A DNA stretch of 53,460 nucleotides, taken from NCBI GenBank assembly GCA_022566415.1, contig JADFIY010000001.1, positions 1-53,460 on the forward strand. Direction: 5' to 3'. The position numbers were made by a program, and so were the translations under genes. The notes under the pieces are model-generated. The model ran no database searches. It was not told the origin of the DNA and was given only the letters and a program-made list of their open reading frames with translations. The first letter of the stretch is position 1; every line of letters starts with the position of its first letter. Source of the stretch: Acidobacteriota bacterium. Its GTDB lineage: Bacteria; Actinomycetota; Acidimicrobiia; Spongiisociales; UBA5794. Positions 12,185 to 53,460 of this stretch are shown piece by piece.

Positions 12185-13066
12185 ATGGAGTGGGTCGAAG
12201 TAACCGGCAGCACCGTCGAAATAGCCGTGGAGGCAGCACTCGAGGAACTCGGGATAGACTCGGTGGAGAACGCTGAGGTCGAGGTCCTTCAGAAGGCTGC
12301 CGGCGGCTTCCTCGGCATGGGCAGCCGACCTGCCATTGTCAAAGTCGTCAAGGCACCCAGCAGGAGCAAGCGTCGTCGGCGTCGGGGTGGATCATCGGGA
12401 CAGCCACAGCCACAGCCACAGCCACAGCAACAGCAACAGCAACAGAACCAGCACAAGAAAAGGCAGCAACAACAAGGCGAGACGCAGGCCGCGAAGAGCG
12501 GGCAACGCTCGCAACGGCGGCGGGCACAGCAGGATGGGAAGGGTCGATCCATGGAAAACGGACAAGCCGGTAACAAGACGGAGCGACCAGAGCCTGCACC
12601 GATTGAGGAGCAAGCCAAGGTGGCAACGGCATTCCTCGACGGATTGCTGGATGCGTTTGGCCTGGAGGGCGAGATAACGTCACGAATTGAAGACGACGTG
12701 CTCTATCTCGACGTCGTAGGCGACCAGACCGAGGCGTTGGTGGGGGCAAAAGGCGCCGCCATGTACTCGGTGCTCGAACTCACCCGCACCACGGTGCAGC
12801 GCAAGACTTTTGGTGCTCCTCGTATGCGAATCGATATCGCTGGCTACGGTGCTCGGCGGCGTGAGGCCCTGACCATCTACACGCACCGGCTGGCCGAACA
12901 GGTGGTCGCCGAAGGGGGCGAGGTGATGCTGGAGCCGATGAATGCCGCCGATCGCAAGGTCGTGCACGACGCCGCCGGTGAGATCGACGGGGTTCGAACG
13001 CACTCCGAGGGCGAGGACCCGCGACGAGCAGTGGTCATCTCACCGGTGGACGGCGCAACCAGCTGA
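12185..13066 (+). CDS. jag: Jag/R3H-domain RNA-binding protein with a PQ/Q-rich linker
   Basis: Jag_N begins at ATG 12185 (MEWVEVTGSTVEIAVEAALEELG). A KH/R3H-like C-terminus follows (MLEPMNAADRKVVHDA). Synteny is yidC-jag-rsmG. Confidence 0.88.
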   Translation: MEWVEVTGSTVEIAVEAALEELGIDSVENAEVEVLQKAAGGFLGMGSRPAIVKVVKAPSRSKRRRRRGGSSGQPQPQPQPQQQQQQQNQHKKRQQQQGETQAAKSGQRSQRRRAQQDGKGRSMENGQAGNKTERPEPAPIEEQAKVATAFLDGLLDAFGLEGEITSRIEDDVLYLDVVGDQTEALVGAKGAAMYSVLELTRTTVQRKTFGAPRMRIDIAGYGARRREALTIYTHRLAEQVVAEGGEVMLEPMNAADRKVVHDAAGEIDGVRTHSEGEDPRRAVVISPVDGATS

Positions 13067-13078
13067 GCCTCAGTGCGT

Positions 13079-13213
13079 GCACCGATAGGTGACCGGTCGT
13101 CTCGACAGAAGTTGGGCCCCTTACCCGCTTTCGCTGCGTCCTCGGGCCCCTCGGGCCACGGCACCGCAAATGGCCTCACCAAGAAGAAACGGATCGCCCC
13201 CTATTTGCGGAAT
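13079..13213 (+). repeat. Hairpin-repeat family, locus 1 (leader + 1 degenerate unit)
   Basis: Leader GCACCGATAGGTGACCGGTCGTCTCGACAGAAG at 13079-13111. Unit arms are CCGCAAA 13164-13170 and TTTGCGG 13204-13210. It fills the jag-rsmG spacer. Confidence 0.75.
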
Positions 13214-13222
13214 CTCTTCGGC

Positions 13223-16460: not shown

Positions 16461-16715
16461 CAGCCCCTCGGTTCGCCGAGAGGCTCCGCAAAAAGCGCGC
16501 GATCGGGTCTGTGTCGGCTACGGCGATTTGCGGAGCCGTGGCCGGAGCGGCCCGCCGCCAAGCGGCGAGAGCGGGAGAGATGGCGCTCCGCAAAAAGCGC
16601 GCGATCGGGTCTGTGTCGGCTACGGCGATTTGCGGAGCCGTGGCCGGAGCGGGCCGTAGCCAGGAGCGGGAAAATGGCTCCACTTCTGTCGAGACGGCCG
16701 GTCACCTAGCGGTGC
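16461..16715 (-). repeat. Hairpin-repeat family, locus 2 (leader + 2 units, period 102 nt), minus orientation
   Basis: Arms GCTCCGCAAA / TTTGCGGAGC occur at 16483-16536 and 16585-16638. The reverse-complemented leader is at 16683-16715. It fills the trxA-cwlM spacer. Confidence 0.88.
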
Positions 16716-16720
16716 GCGCT

Positions 16721-17047
16721 CTAACCGACGAACGAGGCGAGCTCGGCCTCGAGCTGTTTCCTGCTGCGCGCTCCGACGAGTCGCTTCATCTCCTGGCCGT
16801 CCTGGAACACAATCAGGGTCGGGATGCTCATCACGCCATATTGCATGGCGGTTTGCTGGTTTTCATCGACGTTGAGTTTGACGACGTTGAGTTTTCCAGA
16901 CTGCTCTCCGGCGATCTCCTCGAGTGGTCCTTCCATCATCTTGCATGGCCCGCACCACTCCGCCCAGAAGTCGACGAGCGTTGGCGTGGACTCACCGACC
17001 AGTTCGGCAAACGTCGCGTCCGTCGCTTCGATGGTGTTCTTACCCAT
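16721..17047 (-). CDS. trxA: Thioredoxin
   Basis: 108 aa with the WCGPC active site. Confidence 0.95.
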   Translation of the reverse strand: MGKNTIEATDATFAELVGESTPTLVDFWAEWCGPCKMMEGPLEEIAGEQSGKLNVVKLNVDENQQTAMQYGVMSIPTLIVFQDGQEMKRLVGARSRKQLEAELASFVG

Positions 17048-23128: not shown

Positions 23129-24256
23129 ATGGGAACACTTGTGGAAGGTTTACCCGTGAGCTCACCGCTGCCTTCCCTCGATGAACTGCTGGACAAGCTC
23201 AGCGGCGTCGGGGGATCGGATTTGCATCTGAAGGTCGGTTCACCTCCGGTGTTTCGGATCAATGGTGTCGTCCATCGCGCCGAGCTGCCTACCTTGACTC
23301 CCGACGACACCGAGCATTATCTCAACGGCATCATCACCGACCGCGCCAGGCACACGTTCAATGAGGCTGGCGAAGCCGACTTTGCCATCAGTCGACCCGG
23401 GCGGGGGCGGTTTCGCGTCTCTAGTTTCAGGCAGCGGGGCTCTGTCAGCTTGGTGTTGCGCCGGGTGTCGCCGGTCAAGGGCACGTTTCGCGAGCTCGGG
23501 TTGCCCGGGGTGGTGCTCGAGAAGCTGGCCGACGAACGTCCCGGCCTCGTTTTTGTGACAGGGCCGGCCGGCTCCGGCAAGACGACCACGGCCGGCGCCT
23601 TGATCAACCGGATCAACGCCACCAGGCGAACCAGCGTCGTGACGCTGGAAGATCCGATCGAGATCCTCTACCCGGACCAGCAGTCGATCATCTCTCAACG
23701 CGAGATCGGAGTCGACACTGCCTCGTACGCGGTTGGGATCACCGCCGCGGTCGGCCAGGACACCGACGTGATCTTCGTAGGCGGACTTCCCGACATGGAA
23801 ACGATGACGGCGGCCATCAACGCTGCCGAGAGCGGCCATCTCATCATTGCAGTCCTCCCCACATTCGACGGGGTCGAGACCATCCGCCGGCTCGTTGAGT
23901 TCTTCCCCCCGCACCAGCAGCAGAAGATCCGCAAGACGCTGGCGACGAATCTCAAAGGCATCGTGAGCCAGCAGCTCATCCCTCGAGCCGATGGCAAGGG
24001 CAGGGTCGCCGCGGTCGAGGTGCTGGTCAACACCGAAAGGGTGGCAGCCAGAATCGCCGATCCGGAGTTGCTGGACGAGATCGTCGAGGACATCGCTGAA
24101 GGCGATTTCTTCGGAATGCGCTCCTACGACCAGGCCATCTTCAAGCTATACGAGAACGGCGATATCAGCTTTGAAGCAGCGACGTCGCATGCAGCCTCGG
24201 TAACGGACTTCAAAGCGGCGGCACAGGGGCGGCGTCTGGAGCGAGTCGCCAACTGA
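23129..24256 (+). CDS. pilT: Type IV pilus retraction ATPase PilT family
   Basis: SDLHLKVGSPPVFRINGV, Walker A GPAGSGKTTT, and a PilT-type C-terminus. No other pilus genes in the window. Confidence 0.9.
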   Translation: MGTLVEGLPVSSPLPSLDELLDKLSGVGGSDLHLKVGSPPVFRINGVVHRAELPTLTPDDTEHYLNGIITDRARHTFNEAGEADFAISRPGRGRFRVSSFRQRGSVSLVLRRVSPVKGTFRELGLPGVVLEKLADERPGLVFVTGPAGSGKTTTAGALINRINATRRTSVVTLEDPIEILYPDQQSIISQREIGVDTASYAVGITAAVGQDTDVIFVGGLPDMETMTAAINAAESGHLIIAVLPTFDGVETIRRLVEFFPPHQQQKIRKTLATNLKGIVSQQLIPRADGKGRVAAVEVLVNTERVAARIADPELLDEIVEDIAEGDFFGMRSYDQAIFKLYENGDISFEAATSHAASVTDFKAAAQGRRLERVAN

Positions 24257-24260
24257 GAGC

Positions 24261-24600
24261 GCACCGATAATTGACCGGTCTTCTCGACAAAGGTTGACCA
24301 TCCTCTCCCGCTCCTGGCTATGGCCCGCTCGTGCCACGGCTCCGCAAATGGTCTTACCAAAACAGACCGGACGGCGCACTGTCTACGGAGCGTCATTTTT
24401 CCCGCTCTTGCCGCTTCGCGGCGGGGGCCGCTCGGGCCACGGCTCCGCAAATGGTCTTACCAAAACAGACCGGACGGCGCACTGTTTGCGGAGCGTCATT
24501 TTTCCCGCTCTTGCCGCTTCGCGGCGGGGCCGCTCGGGCCACGGCTCCGCAAATGGTCTTACCAAAACAGACCGGACGGCGCACTGTTTGCGGAGCCTCT
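24261..24600 (+). repeat. Hairpin-repeat family, locus 3 (leader + 3 units, period 102-103 nt)
   Basis: CCACGGCTCCGCAAA starts at 24334, 24437 and 24539. Units 2 and 3 are essentially identical. It fills the pilT-rnhA spacer. Confidence 0.92.
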
Positions 24601-24641
24601 ACCGCGATCGGCGGTCCGAACGCCGGTACCCTCCCCGGGCG

Positions 24642-25238
24642 ATGGCCGATTTCACCTGCGAGAGCTGCGGGACGACGTTTTCGCTTCCCGAGCGAGTGCT
24701 CGACCGATATCCGGGATGGACCCCACGGTTGTGTCAATCATGTCGCGATGAGGGTGGAGCGGCATCCACCACCGTCGCAACCGATGGTGATCCCGACACC
24801 GGTGTGTTCACCGATGGGGCGTGTGCCGGCAACCCCGGTCCCGGGGGGTGGGGGGCGGTATACGTCGTCGACGGGCAGATCATCGATGAGGCGCATGGAT
24901 TCGATCCCGACACCACCAACAACCGGATGGAGCTGTTTGCCCTGATCGAGGGCCTCAAGCTGGTCCCTGACGGCACGCCGGTGACGGTGTACTCGGATTC
25001 GGACCTTGCGGTCAAAACCATCAACGAGTGGGCGAGCGCCTGGGAAGAGCGCGGCTGGCAGCGAAAGAGAGCCGGGCCAGACGGTTCCAAGGTTCCGAAG
25101 AACCTGGACCTGGTCAAGAGCGCCTACCGAGCGTACGGTGATCGCCCCGAGGTCGAACTGGTCTGGATCAAGGGTCACGCCAACTACACATGGAACGAGT
25201 ACGCAGACGCCCTGGCAAACAAGTGGAGAAAAGATTGA
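24642..25238 (+). CDS. rnhA: Ribonuclease HI with an N-terminal 4-Cys zinc-ribbon-like extension
   Basis: RNase H core (TDGACAGNPGPGGWG, NNRMEL, YSDSDL, GHANYTWNEYAD) preceded by FTCESCG...LCQSC. Start at ATG 24642; the upstream part of the track ORF is repeat DNA. Confidence 0.88.
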   Translation: MADFTCESCGTTFSLPERVLDRYPGWTPRLCQSCRDEGGAASTTVATDGDPDTGVFTDGACAGNPGPGGWGAVYVVDGQIIDEAHGFDPDTTNNRMELFALIEGLKLVPDGTPVTVYSDSDLAVKTINEWASAWEERGWQRKRAGPDGSKVPKNLDLVKSAYRAYGDRPEVELVWIKGHANYTWNEYADALANKWRKD

Positions 25239-34607: not shown

Positions 34608-34682
34608 TGGGGGGTGGGTTAATGCCGAGTTGGTAACCCCGGATCACGATTACCAGCCCACTGGCATCAGCTCAGTGGTGAT

Positions 34683-41312: not shown

Positions 41313-42176
41313 ATGGCCAAGATCACCGCCCCCGGTATTCGCTCGCGCAAGGGCGGAGCAAGGATCAGGATGGTCACCGCCTACGACCACCCATCTGCGG
41401 TTATCGCCGATCGGGCCGGTGCCGACATCATTCTGGTCGGGGACTCGGTAGCAAACGTCGTCCTCGGCCACGAGGACACCCTGGCCGTGGATGTCGACGT
41501 CATGGTGCACCACACCGCGGCCGTGTCGCGGGCCAAGCCGGACGCGCTCGTAGTCGGCGACATGCCATGGATGAGCTATCACGTCTCGGCCGAGGACACC
41601 GTGCGCAACGCCGGCCGCTTCGTTCGCGAGGGCGGCGCAGGAGCCGTGAAACTCGAGGGCGGAAGGAAACGACTCGAGGCAATCGAGAAGGTCATCGATG
41701 CCGAGATCCCGATTATGGGCCATCTCGGGCTCACCCCCCAGTCCATCCACACCATGGGCGGATACAAAGTGCAAGGGAAACAGGCACAAGCGGCGTATGA
41801 GCTCATCAGCGACGCTCAATCGCTGGCCGGTGCCGGAGTGTTCGCTCTCGTGCTCGAGGCGGTCCCCGACAAGGTTGCCGAGATCGTCACCAGGGAGATC
41901 CCGATCCCGACCATCGGCATAGGTGCCGGCCCTCACTGCGATGGGCAGGTGCTCGTTTACCACGATGTGCTCGGCCTCGGCAGCGGCGACTTCCAGCCGA
42001 AGTTCGTCCGCCGTTACGCCAACCTGGCAGACGACGCCGTCGCCGCCATGAAACGATTCTTTGCCGACATCGAATCTGGCGATTTCCCTTCGGAGGAAGA
42101 GACCTACCACATGGCTACAGACTCCGCCGAGATTCTCGCCGGCCTGGCCGATCTGGAGGCACACGCCAAACAGTGA
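41313..42176 (+). CDS. panB: 3-methyl-2-oxobutanoate hydroxymethyltransferase
   Basis: MVTAYD, LVGDSVANVVLGH, VKLEGG and GHLGLTPQS motifs. ATG 41313 is preceded by GAGAGGAG. Confidence 0.95.
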   Translation: MAKITAPGIRSRKGGARIRMVTAYDHPSAVIADRAGADIILVGDSVANVVLGHEDTLAVDVDVMVHHTAAVSRAKPDALVVGDMPWMSYHVSAEDTVRNAGRFVREGGAGAVKLEGGRKRLEAIEKVIDAEIPIMGHLGLTPQSIHTMGGYKVQGKQAQAAYELISDAQSLAGAGVFALVLEAVPDKVAEIVTREIPIPTIGIGAGPHCDGQVLVYHDVLGLGSGDFQPKFVRRYANLADDAVAAMKRFFADIESGDFPSEEETYHMATDSAEILAGLADLEAHAKQ

Positions 42177-42185
42177 CCTGAGCAA

Positions 42186-42414
42186 GCACCGATAGGTGAC
42201 CCGTCGACAGAAGGGGGAGCCCTGTTCCCGCTCACGGCTACGGCCCGCTCGGGCCATGACTCCGCAAAATCGATCGTCGACTGAGACCGAATCGAGCTCT
42301 ATCTGCGGAGCGCCATTTTCCCGTTCTCGCCGCTTCGCGGCGGGCCGCTCGGGCCACGGCTCCGCAAATGGTCTTTTCAACGAGGACGGATCGCGCTTTA
42401 TTGCGGAGCCTCTC
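42186..42414 (+). repeat. Hairpin-repeat family, locus 4 (leader + 2 units, period 100 nt)
   Basis: Leader GCACCGATAGGTGACC-CGTCGACAGAAG at 42186. CTCCGCAAA at 42260 and 42360. The 3' arms are 42302-42311 (degenerate) and 42401-42409. Confidence 0.88.
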
Positions 42415-42883: not shown

Positions 42884-42960
42884 CGAAATAGCGAAGTAGC
42901 CCAGTAGCCCAGTAGCGAAGGAAGACACTGATCTACTGATCTACTGATCTACTGGATGTA
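42881..42960 (+). repeat. Ten phased octamers starting with the DUF192 stop codon
   Basis: TAGCGAAA TAGCGAAG TAGCCCAG TAGCCCAG TAGCGAAG GAAGACAC TGATCTAC TGATCTAC TGATCTAC TGGATGTA, a single 8-nt register over 80 nt. Confidence 0.88.
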
Positions 42961-46234: not shown

Positions 46235-46280
46235 CCTCGCCTCGATCGCGAGCCAACGGTTCGCGACTCTAGCTATGGGC

Positions 46281-46620
46281 GCGCACGATAGGTGACCGGT
46301 CGTCTCGATATATGTACAGCGATTTTGCCCGCTCTTGCCGCTTCGCGCCCGCCCGGGCCCCGGCTCCACAAATGACCTCACCGACACGCGGACCTGATCG
46401 CTCCGTATTTGCGGAGCGCCATTTTTCCGCTCTTGGCTACGGCCCGTTCGGGCCACGGCTTCGTAAATTGGCCTCGCTGACAGAGACCGGGTCGCGCCGT
46501 ATTTTGCGGAGCGCCATTTTTCCGCTCTTGCTGTTTCGCAGCGGGCCGCTCGGGCCCCGGCTCCGCAAAATTGGCCTCGCCGACAAGAAGCTGGATCGCG
46601 CCGTATTTTGCGGAGCCTCC
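46281..46620 (+). repeat. Hairpin-repeat family, locus 5 (leader + 3 diverged units, periods 95 and 102 nt)
   Basis: Leader GCGCACGATAGGTGACCGGTCGTCTCGATA at 46281. The 5' arms are at 46362, 46457 and 46559. The 3' arms TTTGCGGAGC are at 46408, 46503 and 46607. Confidence 0.9.
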
Positions 46621-53198: not shown

Positions 53199-53199
53199 G

Positions 53200-53220
53200 G
53201 GAGTCGCCTGCGGCGACTCC
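53200..53220 (+). terminator. Perfect 9-bp stem / 3-nt loop hairpin 2 nt after the acyl-CoA ligase stop (no U-tract)
   Basis: GGAGTCGCC tgc GGCGACTCC. Confidence 0.45.
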
Positions 53221-53245
53221 GTGTTACGTATTACGAGTCGGACCT

Positions 53246-53325
53246 GAGTGACCGGTCGTCTCGGCAGAAGTGTGGAGCAATTTCTCCCGCTCTCGGCTAC
53301 CCCCCGCTGGGGCCCCGGCTCCGCA
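53246..53325 (+). repeat. Hairpin-repeat family, locus 6 (leader + truncated unit lacking the 3' arm)
   Basis: GAGTGACCGGTCGTCTCGGCAGAAG, then GTGGAGCAATTTCTCCCGCTCTCGGCTACCCCCCGCTGGGGCCCCGGCTCCGCA. No TTTGCGGAGC follows. Confidence 0.65.
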
Positions 53326-53460
53326 CGGGCCTAGCCGCGTACCCAGGGCTCACACCGGCGTATCCGGGGTTGTAGTGGCGCGGGACATCCCGTACAGGTG
53401 TCGCGGGTCTTCCCTGACAGGTGGTGGTGGTCATGGGGTTGGTCTTCCTGGTCGGTTGTG

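What the first reader, a model, noticed from the sequence alone, without database searches (positions are those of the whole stretch)
24261..24293. Conserved ~33-nt leader motif heads every repeat locus and begins 4-12 nt after the stop codon in four of six cases
The leaders align as follows.
- Locus 1: GCACCGATAGGTGACCGGTCGTCTCGACAGAAG (13079).
- Locus 2, reverse complement: GCACCGCTAGGTGACCGGCCGTCTCGACAGAAG (16715 downwards).
- Locus 3: GCACCGATAATTGACCGGTCTTCTCGACAAAGG (24261).
- Locus 4: GCACCGATAGGTGACC-----CGTCGACAGAAG (42186).
- Locus 5: GCAC-GATAGGTGACCGGTCGTCTCGATATATG (46283).
- Locus 6: GAGTGACCGGTCGTCTCGGCAGAAG (53246).
Gaps from the stop codon to the leader are 12, 5, 4 and 9 nt for loci 1-4, and ~47 nt for loci 5-6. 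The leader contains a small CACC-N4-GGTG hairpin whose loop varies (GATA vs GCTA) while the stem is kept. It also contains the palindrome GACCGGTC. The leader occurs once per locus and is not repeated with the units. That suggests a polar element (insertion-site, processing or termination signal) rather than a simple slippage satellite.
Basis: seen in the sequence. Interest (0 to 1): 0.7.

Follow-up and report, generated by a model that had tools for sequence, protein, structure and literature searches.

The report
Left end of a small transposon
The "leader" is the left end of a small non-coding mobile element (a MITE) present in hundreds of copies in uncultured marine-sediment Acidimicrobiia; it inserts at T-N-A sites, often on stop codons, so it is a new example of a well-known kind of genomic parasite rather than a new signal.

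Summary
All six loci exist at the stated coordinates, each with one leader and one to three ~100-nt units.

The leader is not a polar signal. It is the left terminal module of a composite non-coding mobile element:
- The element ends ...GCGGAGCCTC.
- Both ends are flanked by a T-N-A trinucleotide.

Evidence that it is mobile:
- The left and right trinucleotides match far more often than chance (13/40 against 6.0 expected, p=0.0005).
- A base-level filled/empty comparison shows GGGCC-TTA-[146 bp GAG...CTC]-TTA-GAGCGACTG against GGGCC-TGA-GAGCAACTG.
- trxA orthologues carry 0, 1, 2 or 3 units.

A 3-bp T-N-A duplication is what the IS1031 group of the IS5 family makes. No transposase was found.

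The element starts with G and ends with C. Insertion at C|TWA|G therefore rebuilds TAG or TAA on both strands, which explains why it sits next to stop codons.

In related genomes about half the copies are reversed. There the other end, not the leader, abuts the stop codon.

No Rfam family matched, no canonical intrinsic terminator was found at locus 3, and RNA contig depth gave no sign of abundance beyond copy number.

Verdict: a new member of a known kind (a BOX-like modular MITE); modest interest.

The parts
24254..24256 (+). pilT stop codon TGA, which occupies the left T-N-A (target duplication) position of element 3
   Evidence: ORF 23129-24256 is a T2SSE ATPase. It is followed directly by GAGC-GCACC. 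The T-N-A position comes from the profile of 99 copies.
24257..24599 (+). Element 3 (343 bp). It carries three units (nhmmer 24306-24391, 24399-24494, 24502-24596) and ends GCGGAGCCTC at 24599. The right flank TAC (24600-24602) is a decayed duplication.
13073..13216 (+). Element 1 (144 bp, one unit), 6 nt after the jag stop codon (13064-13066). The T-N-A position is TCA, 13070-13072. The orthologous site in a related MAG (L010:2178) holds 4 units.
16480..16721 (-). Element 2 (242 bp, two units). The left duplication TTA is 16724-16722. The element's first G (16721) completes trxA's TAG stop codon.
   Evidence: trxA orthologues with 0, 1 or 3 units are shown.
42180..42412 (+). Element 4 (233 bp, two units), 3 nt after the panB stop codon (42174-42176). 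Its leader has a 5-nt deletion.
46277..46619 (+). Element 5 (343 bp, three diverged units), 42 nt after the dnaB stop codon and behind a small palindrome.
53235..53330 (+). Element 6: a degenerate leader plus a partial unit, 36 nt after the stop codon of the AMP-binding enzyme gene and behind a G+C-rich hairpin. It lies near the window end and its boundaries are approximate.
34647..34680 (.). Empty orthologous site. A related MAG (L008) carries a 2-unit element here; the flanks are 86-88% identical.

Best explanation
The leader is the left terminal module of a lineage-specific, non-autonomous DNA transposon (a MITE).

**Structure**
- Layout: 5'-GAGCGCGCACCGATAGGTGACCGGTCGTCTCGACAGAAGTGGAGCCATTTT - n x [~100-nt unit holding a long GGCTCCGCAAA...TTTGCGGAGCC hairpin] - CTC-3'.
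- The commonest form has one unit and is 139-148 bp.

**Shown**
- The element is flanked by a 3-bp target duplication of the type T-N-A (mostly TTA or TAA).
- The preferred target is C|TWA|G.
- Related genomes have filled and empty sites.
- The unit number changes at orthologous sites (1 against 4; 1, 2 or 3).

**Inferred**
- The element is moved in trans by a DDE transposase of the IS5 family, IS1031-group type. That group makes exactly such 3-bp T-N-A duplications.
- Unit number changes by slippage or unequal recombination between the GGAGC(G)CCATTTT junctions.

**Why it sits at stop codons**
- The element begins with G and ends with C. An insertion at C|TTA|G or C|TAA|G therefore rebuilds TTAG/TAAG at the left junction and CTTA/CTAA at the right. 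A TAG or TAA is kept on both strands.
- The left end also carries TAG (GATAGG) and TGA (GGTGACC) in the other two frames.
- Insertions on a stop codon, or within the last few codons of a gene, are therefore harmless and survive.
- Either end can face the gene, so the 'polarity' seen in this window is not a property of the element.
For: 1. **Lineage-specific and multi-copy.** A 19-nt leader pattern hits 27 places in 185,579 species genomes, all in two MAGs. A 22-nt pattern hits 57 marine-sediment contigs. The unit core is about 100-500x the depth of flanking single-copy DNA in 8 metagenomes.
2. **Boundaries.** Conservation starts abruptly at T-N-A|GAGCGC and stops at GCCTC|T-N-A.
3. **Target duplication.** Left and right trinucleotides are identical in 13 of 40 non-redundant complete copies, against 6.0 expected by permutation (p=0.00045). 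The matches include the rare types TCA/TCA and TAG/TAG and 3 of the 4 right-hand TAA. Both unit subtypes show the match.
4. **Base-level empty site.**
   - L014: GGGCC-TTA-[146 bp GAGGCTCC...GTGCTC]-TTA-GAGCGACTGCAGCAACCCGTAAG.
   - L096: GGGCC-TGA-GAGCAACTGAAGCAACCCGTAAG.
   - The insertion cut 3 codons off an LCP gene and supplied its new TAG.
5. **trxA site.** It is filled with 2 units in the window, 3 in L010 and 1 in L090. It is empty in L091-L094. Removing the element and one TTA from L010 leaves GCT-TAG-GCAACCGAGGAGCCG-GTG, a normal gene junction.
6. **Other presence/absence differences**.
7. **Orientation is not fixed**.
8. **Literature.** The IS1031 group prefers 5'-TNA-3' and makes an exclusive 3-bp repeat (PMC12016507; also PMC2516522). 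Related eukaryotic transposons use TWA or C|TNA|G (PMC4482050).
Against: - No autonomous copy or transposase with matching ends was found in about 600 kb of fetched loci or in plasmids.
- The terminal inverted repeats are weak. Only GAG/CTC and scattered matches over about 40 nt agree (score 23.5 against 16.9 +/- 3.2 for shuffles; 15 of 500 shuffles as high).
- Two-thirds of copies lack a perfect duplication. All window copies are decayed.
- In the one clean empty site the target reads TGA, not TTA. Three other 'empty' sites are too diverged, or look like deletions, to define the cut.
- Enrichment at stop codons is about 5-fold stronger than target preference alone predicts. Selection, or a further targeting factor, is therefore assumed and not shown.
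- All six window copies are co-oriented with the upstream gene. Outside the window, copies between tandem genes run about 3 to 13 the other way. This difference is unexplained.
Confidence: 0.85

Rival explanations
1. A functional RNA signal. The leader plus hairpins would act as a terminator, a processing site or a 3'-end stabiliser placed after genes, as some REP/BIME, ERIC or SPRITE copies do. The sequence family would be kept for that role.
For: - The hairpins are long and stable (-70 kcal/mol for a one-unit element, z=-2.7).
- The main helix is 86% paired, with more double changes than in shuffles (32 against 15.8).
- Internal unit junctions have a T5 run just after the stem.
- All six window copies are co-oriented with the upstream gene.
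- The copies after jag and after trxA have persisted across species.
Against: - Orientation relative to transcription is mixed in the wider sample (7 co-oriented, 13 reversed).
- There is no Rfam match.
- No canonical terminator was found at locus 3, and the last unit of an element lacks the T run.
- RNA-seq contig depth of units relative to flanks (140-280x) is similar to DNA (110-500x).
- Orthologous copies decay freely (L090).
- The leader stem shows no covariation.
- Relatives do without the element at the same gene junction.
Confidence: 0.07
2. A REP/BIME-type (REPIN) element moved by a RAYT, or an IS200/IS605-type palindrome-associated element moved by a Y1 HUH transposase acting on single-stranded hairpins.
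For: - Each unit is a long imperfect palindrome.
- Tandem arrays with linker motifs recall BIME-2 clusters.
- The two ends are asymmetric, with subterminal hairpins.
Against: - Those systems make no target duplication, and their right flank is arbitrary. Here both flanks are T-N-A and match each other. A clean 3-bp duplication is seen against an empty site.
- No RAYT or TnpA gene was seen next to any copy. Neighbouring genes were not searched systematically.
Confidence: 0.05
3. A MIRU-like or minisatellite locus that arose in place by slippage, with the leader being merely conserved flanking sequence.
For: - The units are in tandem, and the copy number varies between orthologous loci.
Against: - The same leader, units and terminus occur at 66 or more unrelated sites with unrelated flanks.
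- The commonest form has a single unit.
- Unit lengths (95-103 nt) are not multiples of 3.
- Filled/empty sites show insertion of the whole block.
Confidence: 0.01

Closest known systems
Bacterial MITEs (Correia/NEMIS, ERIC, RUP, Nezha; review PMC2229807)
   Same: - Small (about 145 bp), non-coding and highly folded.
- Hundreds of dispersed copies.
- Makes a target duplication.
- Lies mostly just downstream of genes, in either orientation.
- Its termini carry stop codons, so ORFs can end in them.
   Different: - G+C-rich rather than A+T-rich.
- A 3-bp T-N-A duplication instead of TA.
- Very weak terminal inverted repeats.
- An internal unit that multiplies in tandem.
BOX elements of Streptococcus pneumoniae (boxA - n x boxB - boxC; PMC3049150)
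   Same: - The same architecture: a unique 5' module, a variable number of tandem internal modules, and a distinct 3' terminus.
- Unit number varies between strains or species.
- Predicted stem-loops.
- Enriched downstream of genes.
   Different: - No sequence relationship, and a different phylum.
- Here the 3' terminus is the end of the last unit rather than a separate boxC.
- The target duplication is defined here.
IS1031 group of the IS5 family (for example ISLrh, PMC12016507; ISLxx6, PMC2516522) and its eukaryotic relatives PIF/Harbinger and NuwaII (PMC4482050)
   Same: - Target 5'-TNA-3' with an exclusive 3-bp direct repeat.
- C|TNA|G context, as in NuwaII.
- Ends begin with GA(G). This point comes from my memory of the ISfinder table; the ISLrh inverted repeat starts GAACC.
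   Different: - No transposase gene is present in the element, and none was found nearby.
- The ends are not shown to match any IS.
REP/BIME and REPIN elements; MIRU of mycobacteria
   Same: - Extragenic palindromic units, sometimes in tandem arrays inside operons.
- Copy number varies, as in VNTR loci.
   Different: - REPs have no target duplication and depend on RAYT.
- From memory, MIRUs are co-oriented with their genes and carry short ORFs overlapping the neighbouring genes. Neither holds here.

Membership tests
MITE (non-autonomous DNA transposon) | Short, non-coding, many dispersed copies | tested here: met
   - One-unit elements are 139-148 bp.
- Unit periods of 95-103 nt are not in frame.
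- There are 100 copies in 85 loci at 66 distinct sites.
- Depth is 100-500x single-copy DNA.
MITE (non-autonomous DNA transposon) | Target site duplication | tested here: met
   - 13/40 identical flanking trinucleotides against 6.0 expected, p=0.00045.
- TTA...TTA around a 146-bp insert, against a single TGA in the empty orthologue.
MITE (non-autonomous DNA transposon) | Filled and empty sites among relatives | tested here: met
   - trxA site: 0, 1, 2 or 3 units.
- LCP gene site.
- Window 34647-34680 is empty where L008 is filled.
MITE (non-autonomous DNA transposon) | Terminal inverted repeats | tested here: inconclusive
   - Both ends read 5'-GAG inward, and both carry ATAGG at positions 13-17.
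- The overall alignment score is 23.5 against shuffles of 16.9 +/- 3.2, with 15 of 500 shuffles as high.
MITE (non-autonomous DNA transposon) | A cognate autonomous IS with matching ends | tested here: not met
   - No inward-facing end pair encloses an ORF in about 600 kb of loci.
- Nothing was found in plasmids.
- Whole genomes could not be searched.
IS5 family, IS1031 group (as the mobilising enzyme) | 3-bp direct repeat at 5'-TNA-3' | tested here: met
   - The N position carries 0 bits, while T and A are conserved.
- The duplications seen are TTA, TAA, TCA and TAG.
- The rule is taken from PMC12016507.
IS5 family, IS1031 group (as the mobilising enzyme) | A DDE transposase of that group in the same genomes | not testable with these tools
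   The MAGs could only be reached around pattern hits.
REP/BIME (RAYT-dependent) | No target duplication; RAYT gene flanked by the repeats | tested here: not met
   A duplication is present. No RAYT was seen, but neighbours were not searched systematically.
MIRU-type minisatellite | Co-oriented with the flanking genes; unit ORFs overlap the neighbouring genes (features taken from memory) | tested here: not met
   - Orientation between tandem genes is 7 co-oriented against 13 reversed.
- Unit length varies from 95 to 103 nt.
Any Rfam RNA family / intrinsic terminator | A match to a curated covariance model; a stem followed by a T run | tested here: not met
   - Only a tRNA-Gly reaches the gathering score in the window.
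- There are 0 terminator-like sites in 24200-24700.

The most novel reading that the evidence does not exclude
The family may be adapted for 'safe' insertion on stop codons. With G...C termini and a TWA duplication, it rebuilds a stop codon on both strands, and the left end adds stops in the other two frames. A subset of old, co-oriented copies might also have been taken over as operon punctuation (attenuator or mRNA 3'-end stabiliser). Candidates are those retained after jag and trxA across species, together with all six copies in this origin-proximal window. That would explain why the window's copies all point with transcription while younger copies do not.
Probability: 0.15. Interest if true: 0.55.

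Novelty: new member of a known kind. Interest (0 to 1): 0.3.

Why it matters
- **Annotation.** It gives an annotation rule for a widespread, uncultured marine-sediment Acidimicrobiia lineage. Hundreds of intergenic blocks of 145-345 bp per genome are one MITE family, not regulatory RNAs or CRISPR-like arrays.
- **Assembly and typing.** These blocks break short-read assemblies. They could also serve as VNTR-like strain markers.
- **Gene ends.** It shows how a G...C-ended element with a TWA duplication can sit exactly on stop codons, or replace the last codons of a gene, without harm. This matters when calling gene ends in these MAGs.
- **What it is not.** It does not reveal a new kind of signal.

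Tried and rejected
- **Rfam** at gathering thresholds found nothing but a tRNA.
- **RNAalifold** on 98 units returned no consensus structure, because the alignment mixes two 5' subtypes. I counted pairs on an explicit structure instead.
- **First Python scan** timed out.
- **Viral contigs:** 5 hits to the 18-nt core. I took them as chance matches and did not inspect them.
- **RNA evidence:**
  - The 'metatranscriptomic WGA' runs behave like DNA.
  - True RNA-seq runs are held only as contigs. They show that units are present in RNA at about the ratio expected from copy number, with no information on transcript ends.
- **Population-level empty alleles** of two young copies (L044): none in 4 metagenomes.
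- **Three candidate empty sites** (L019/L083, L011/L088, L008/window) were too diverged, or looked like partial deletions, to define the cut.
- **Autonomous IS:** a search for inward-facing end pairs, and for leader-to-right-end distances of 0.7-3 kb, found none.
- **Plasmid database:** only chance hits.
- **Siguier et al. IS review:** two look-ups failed.
- **Rejected ideas:**
  - *CRISPR-like or guide-like 'variable loop':* the loop is only a less conserved part of one consensus.
  - *A promoter in the leader:* no sigma-70-like site.
  - *A replication-strand rule:* locus 2 is reversed and follows its gene.

Full report
**1. The observation**

The window (63% G+C) covers the replication-origin region of an uncultured bacterium: gyrA, gyrB, recF, dnaN and dnaA on the minus strand, and yidC, jag, rsmG, parA and parB on the plus strand. 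It is found in marine-sediment metagenomes. A TrxA homologue 89% identical to the window's comes from a MAG named Acidimicrobiia bacterium.

The six loci are as described.
- The leader core occurs 5 times at up to 3 mismatches, against 0.18 expected. The sixth copy has the stated 5-nt deletion.
- Each locus has one leader followed by 1-3 units of 95-103 nt.
- No unit lies outside a leader-headed locus.
- The stop-to-leader gaps of 12, 5, 4, 9, 48 and 47 nt are correct.
- The upstream genes are Jag, TrxA, a PilT-type ATPase, PanB, DnaB and an AMP-binding enzyme.

**2. Distribution**

- A 19-nt leader pattern scanned over one genome for each of 185,579 species hit 27 places. All lie in two MAGs, labelled Acidobacteria and Kiloniellales, and there were no chance hits elsewhere.
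- A 22-nt pattern hit 57 metagenome contigs, all apparently from sediment.
- In eight metagenomes the conserved unit core has about 100-500 times the depth of the flanking single-copy DNA.
- The family is therefore lineage-specific and present in hundreds of copies.

**3. True boundaries**

The left end reads T-N-A|GAGCGCGCACCGATAGGTGACCGGTCGTCTCGACAGAAGTGGAGCCATTTT, with zero information at N.
- The other end reads ...TTTGCGGAGCCTC|T-N-A.
- The commonest element has one unit and is 139-148 bp. Two- and three-unit forms are about 240 and 345 bp.
- Exact window coordinates:

| Element | Coordinates | Strand |
|---|---|---|
| 1 | 13073-13216 | + |
| 2 | 16480-16721 | - |
| 3 | 24257-24599 | + |
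| 4 | 42180-42412 | + |
| 5 | 46277-46619 | + |
| 6 | about 53235-53330 (degenerate) | + |

**4. It is a mobile insertion with a 3-bp duplication**

In 40 non-redundant complete copies the left and right flanking trinucleotides are identical 13 times, against 6.0 expected by permutation (p=0.00045).
- The matches include the rare types TCA/TCA and TAG/TAG, and 3 of the 4 right-hand TAA.
- The matching types are spread over both unit subtypes, so they are not inherited subfamily markers.
- Reconstructed targets are mostly C|TTA|G or C|TAA|G.

A base-level filled/empty pair settles the boundaries.
- Downstream of an LCP gene, L014 reads GGGCC-TTA-[146 bp GAGGCTCC...GTGCTC]-TTA-GAGCGACTGCAGCAACCCGTAAG.
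- The orthologue in another Acidimicrobiia MAG (L096, 82% protein identity) reads GGGCC-TGA-GAGCAACTGAAGCAACCCGTAAG.
- That insertion fell 9 nt before the ancestral stop codon. The gene now ends at TAG, made of the TA of the duplication plus the element's terminal G.

The trxA site is filled in some relatives and empty in others.
- It holds 2 units in the window, 3 in L010 and 1 decayed unit in L090.
- It is empty in four more distant relatives (L091-L094). There the stop codon is followed by only 10-25 nt before the next gene.
- Deleting the element and one TTA from L010 leaves GCT-TAG-GCAACCGAGGAGCCG-GTG, an ordinary junction with a ribosome-binding site.

Other differences between relatives:
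- Window 34647-34680 is empty where L008 has a 2-unit element.
- Unit number differs at orthologous sites (1 against 4 after jag; 1 against 3 in L011/L087; 1 against 2 in L049/L066). The internal array therefore behaves like a minisatellite inside the element.

**5. Why stop codons, and why no polarity**

The element starts with G and ends with C. Insertion at C|TWA|G therefore regenerates TTAG/TAAG on the left and CTTA/CTAA on the right. This leaves a TAG or TAA on each strand.

The left end also has TAG (GATAGG) and TGA (GGTGACC) in the other two frames. Several upstream ORFs end in these: L012 and L031 at TAG; L014b, L018 and L025 at TGA.

Among 39 non-redundant complete elements with both neighbours called:

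| Gene arrangement around the element | Elements | Elements with an end flush with a stop codon |
|---|---|---|
| Any | 39 | 27 have at least one end at a stop; 15 have the left end at one, 16 the right end |
| Tandem genes, element co-oriented | 7 | 6 have the leader at the stop |
| Tandem genes, element reversed | 13 | 8 have the right end at the upstream gene's stop |
| Convergent genes | 14 | 13 |
| Divergent genes | 5 | 0 |

- Pfam confirmed 9 of 10 ORFs flanking reversed copies as real domain proteins.
- As background, only 50 of 530 non-coding TWA sites and 405 of 2,625 non-coding TNA sites overlap a stop codon.
- The association with stop codons is therefore real, but it belongs to both ends. 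It is stronger than target preference alone predicts. I attribute the excess to selection against insertions elsewhere and to tolerated insertions in the last codons of genes. This part is inferred.
- The window's six co-oriented copies out of six are not representative. I cannot explain that contrast. The window copies are older, with decayed ends and no matching duplications.

**6. RNA-level tests**

- Only a tRNA reaches an Rfam gathering score.
- There is no sigma-70-like promoter and no canonical terminator at locus 3.
- The element folds strongly. The 5' AAGAGCG pairs with CGCTCTT at the start of the first unit, and each unit forms a long hairpin.
- The main helix is 86% paired, with modest covariation (32 double-change cells against 15.8 in shuffles). 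This fits a palindromic repeat, whether it acts as DNA or as RNA.
- The leader's CACC/GGTG stem shows no compensatory change.
- RNA-seq contigs contain units at a unit-to-flank ratio of 140-280x, similar to DNA. Contigs give no information on transcript ends.

**7. Comparison with known systems**

- The features of a MITE are met, except for clear terminal inverted repeats and a known autonomous partner.
- A 3-bp duplication at 5'-TNA-3' is the stated hallmark of the IS1031 group of the IS5 family (PMC12016507; PMC2516522). The eukaryotic relatives PIF/Harbinger and NuwaII use TWA and C|TNA|G (PMC4482050).
- The architecture of unique 5' module, repeated internal module and distinct terminus parallels pneumococcal BOX elements (PMC3049150).
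- REP/RAYT and IS200/IS605-type elements are disfavoured because they make no duplication.
- MIRU-type minisatellites are disfavoured by the mixed orientation, the unit lengths that are not in frame, and the many unrelated sites.

**8. Verdict**

The leader is the left end of a new, modular MITE family of marine Acidimicrobiia. The reading as an insertion-site element is supported. The reading as a polar processing or termination signal is not. This is a new member of a known kind, and interest is modest.

Noticed in passing
window 42884-42960 (minus strand); L007:190-380; L030:7513-7600; right flanks of L039/L070: A second repeat family. It is a 7-8-nt microsatellite, (CAGTAGAT)n, followed by CAGTGTCT(G/T)CCTTCGCTACTG. 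In the window it lies after the DUF192 gene. The same block sits inside a leader-headed element in L007. (TACTTGC)n arrays follow a leader-like start in L030 and flank L039/L070.
   Followed up: partly
L009, L010:6060-6200, L023, L032, L089: A variant first unit. It has a different hairpin (GGCTCAGCGGA...TCCGCTTCGCC) in place of the GGCTCCGCAAA stem, so the family has unit subtypes. Two 5' subtypes of the normal unit also exist (GCCGCTTCGCGGC against GGCTACGG).
   Followed up: partly
L029:925-1060: A variant leader. It keeps TAAGGGCGCGCACC, then has a different hairpin (TGCGAACCC-AGG-GTTCGCA) instead of GATAGGTGACCGGTCGTCTCGACAGAAG, followed by a normal unit.
   Followed up: no
L021:641-830, L071, L035 against L058:1096: A complete element directly abuts a second, truncated leader; the two share the TA of CTCTTA|AGAGCGC. 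An orthologous contig has only the truncated leader. Either new copies insert beside old ends, or recombination between the two leaders deleted the element. L015 and L020 also have a partial left end right after the right end.
   Followed up: partly
window loci 1-6 against L006-L089: All six window copies point with the upstream gene. Outside the window, copies between tandem genes are about 3 co-oriented to 13 reversed. The window copies are also the most decayed. This may be chance, an age effect, or selection near the origin.
   Followed up: partly
window 46235-46276 and 53199-53222: Small G+C-rich palindromes (TCGCGA...TCGCGA; GGGGAGTCGCC-TGC-GGCGACTCC) lie between the stop codon and elements 5 and 6.
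   Followed up: no
L006-L032 record titles; P0023, P0122: The two MAGs that carry the element are labelled 'Acidobacteria bacterium' and 'uncultured Kiloniellales bacterium'. However, their genes are 86-92% identical to the window in DNA, and the nearest named proteins are from Acidimicrobiia. The labels look wrong, or the bins are mixed.
   Followed up: partly
L019:7282 (minus strand) against L083:11260-11410: At a site filled in L019, the 'empty' allele in L083 keeps 17 nt (TGATTGGCCGGTCCTCC) that resemble the middle of the leader. This suggests loss by internal deletion rather than a never-occupied site.
   Followed up: partly
L022:1850-2140: Two leaders face each other about 170 nt apart around a partial unit. 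This is a head-to-head or nested arrangement.
   Followed up: no
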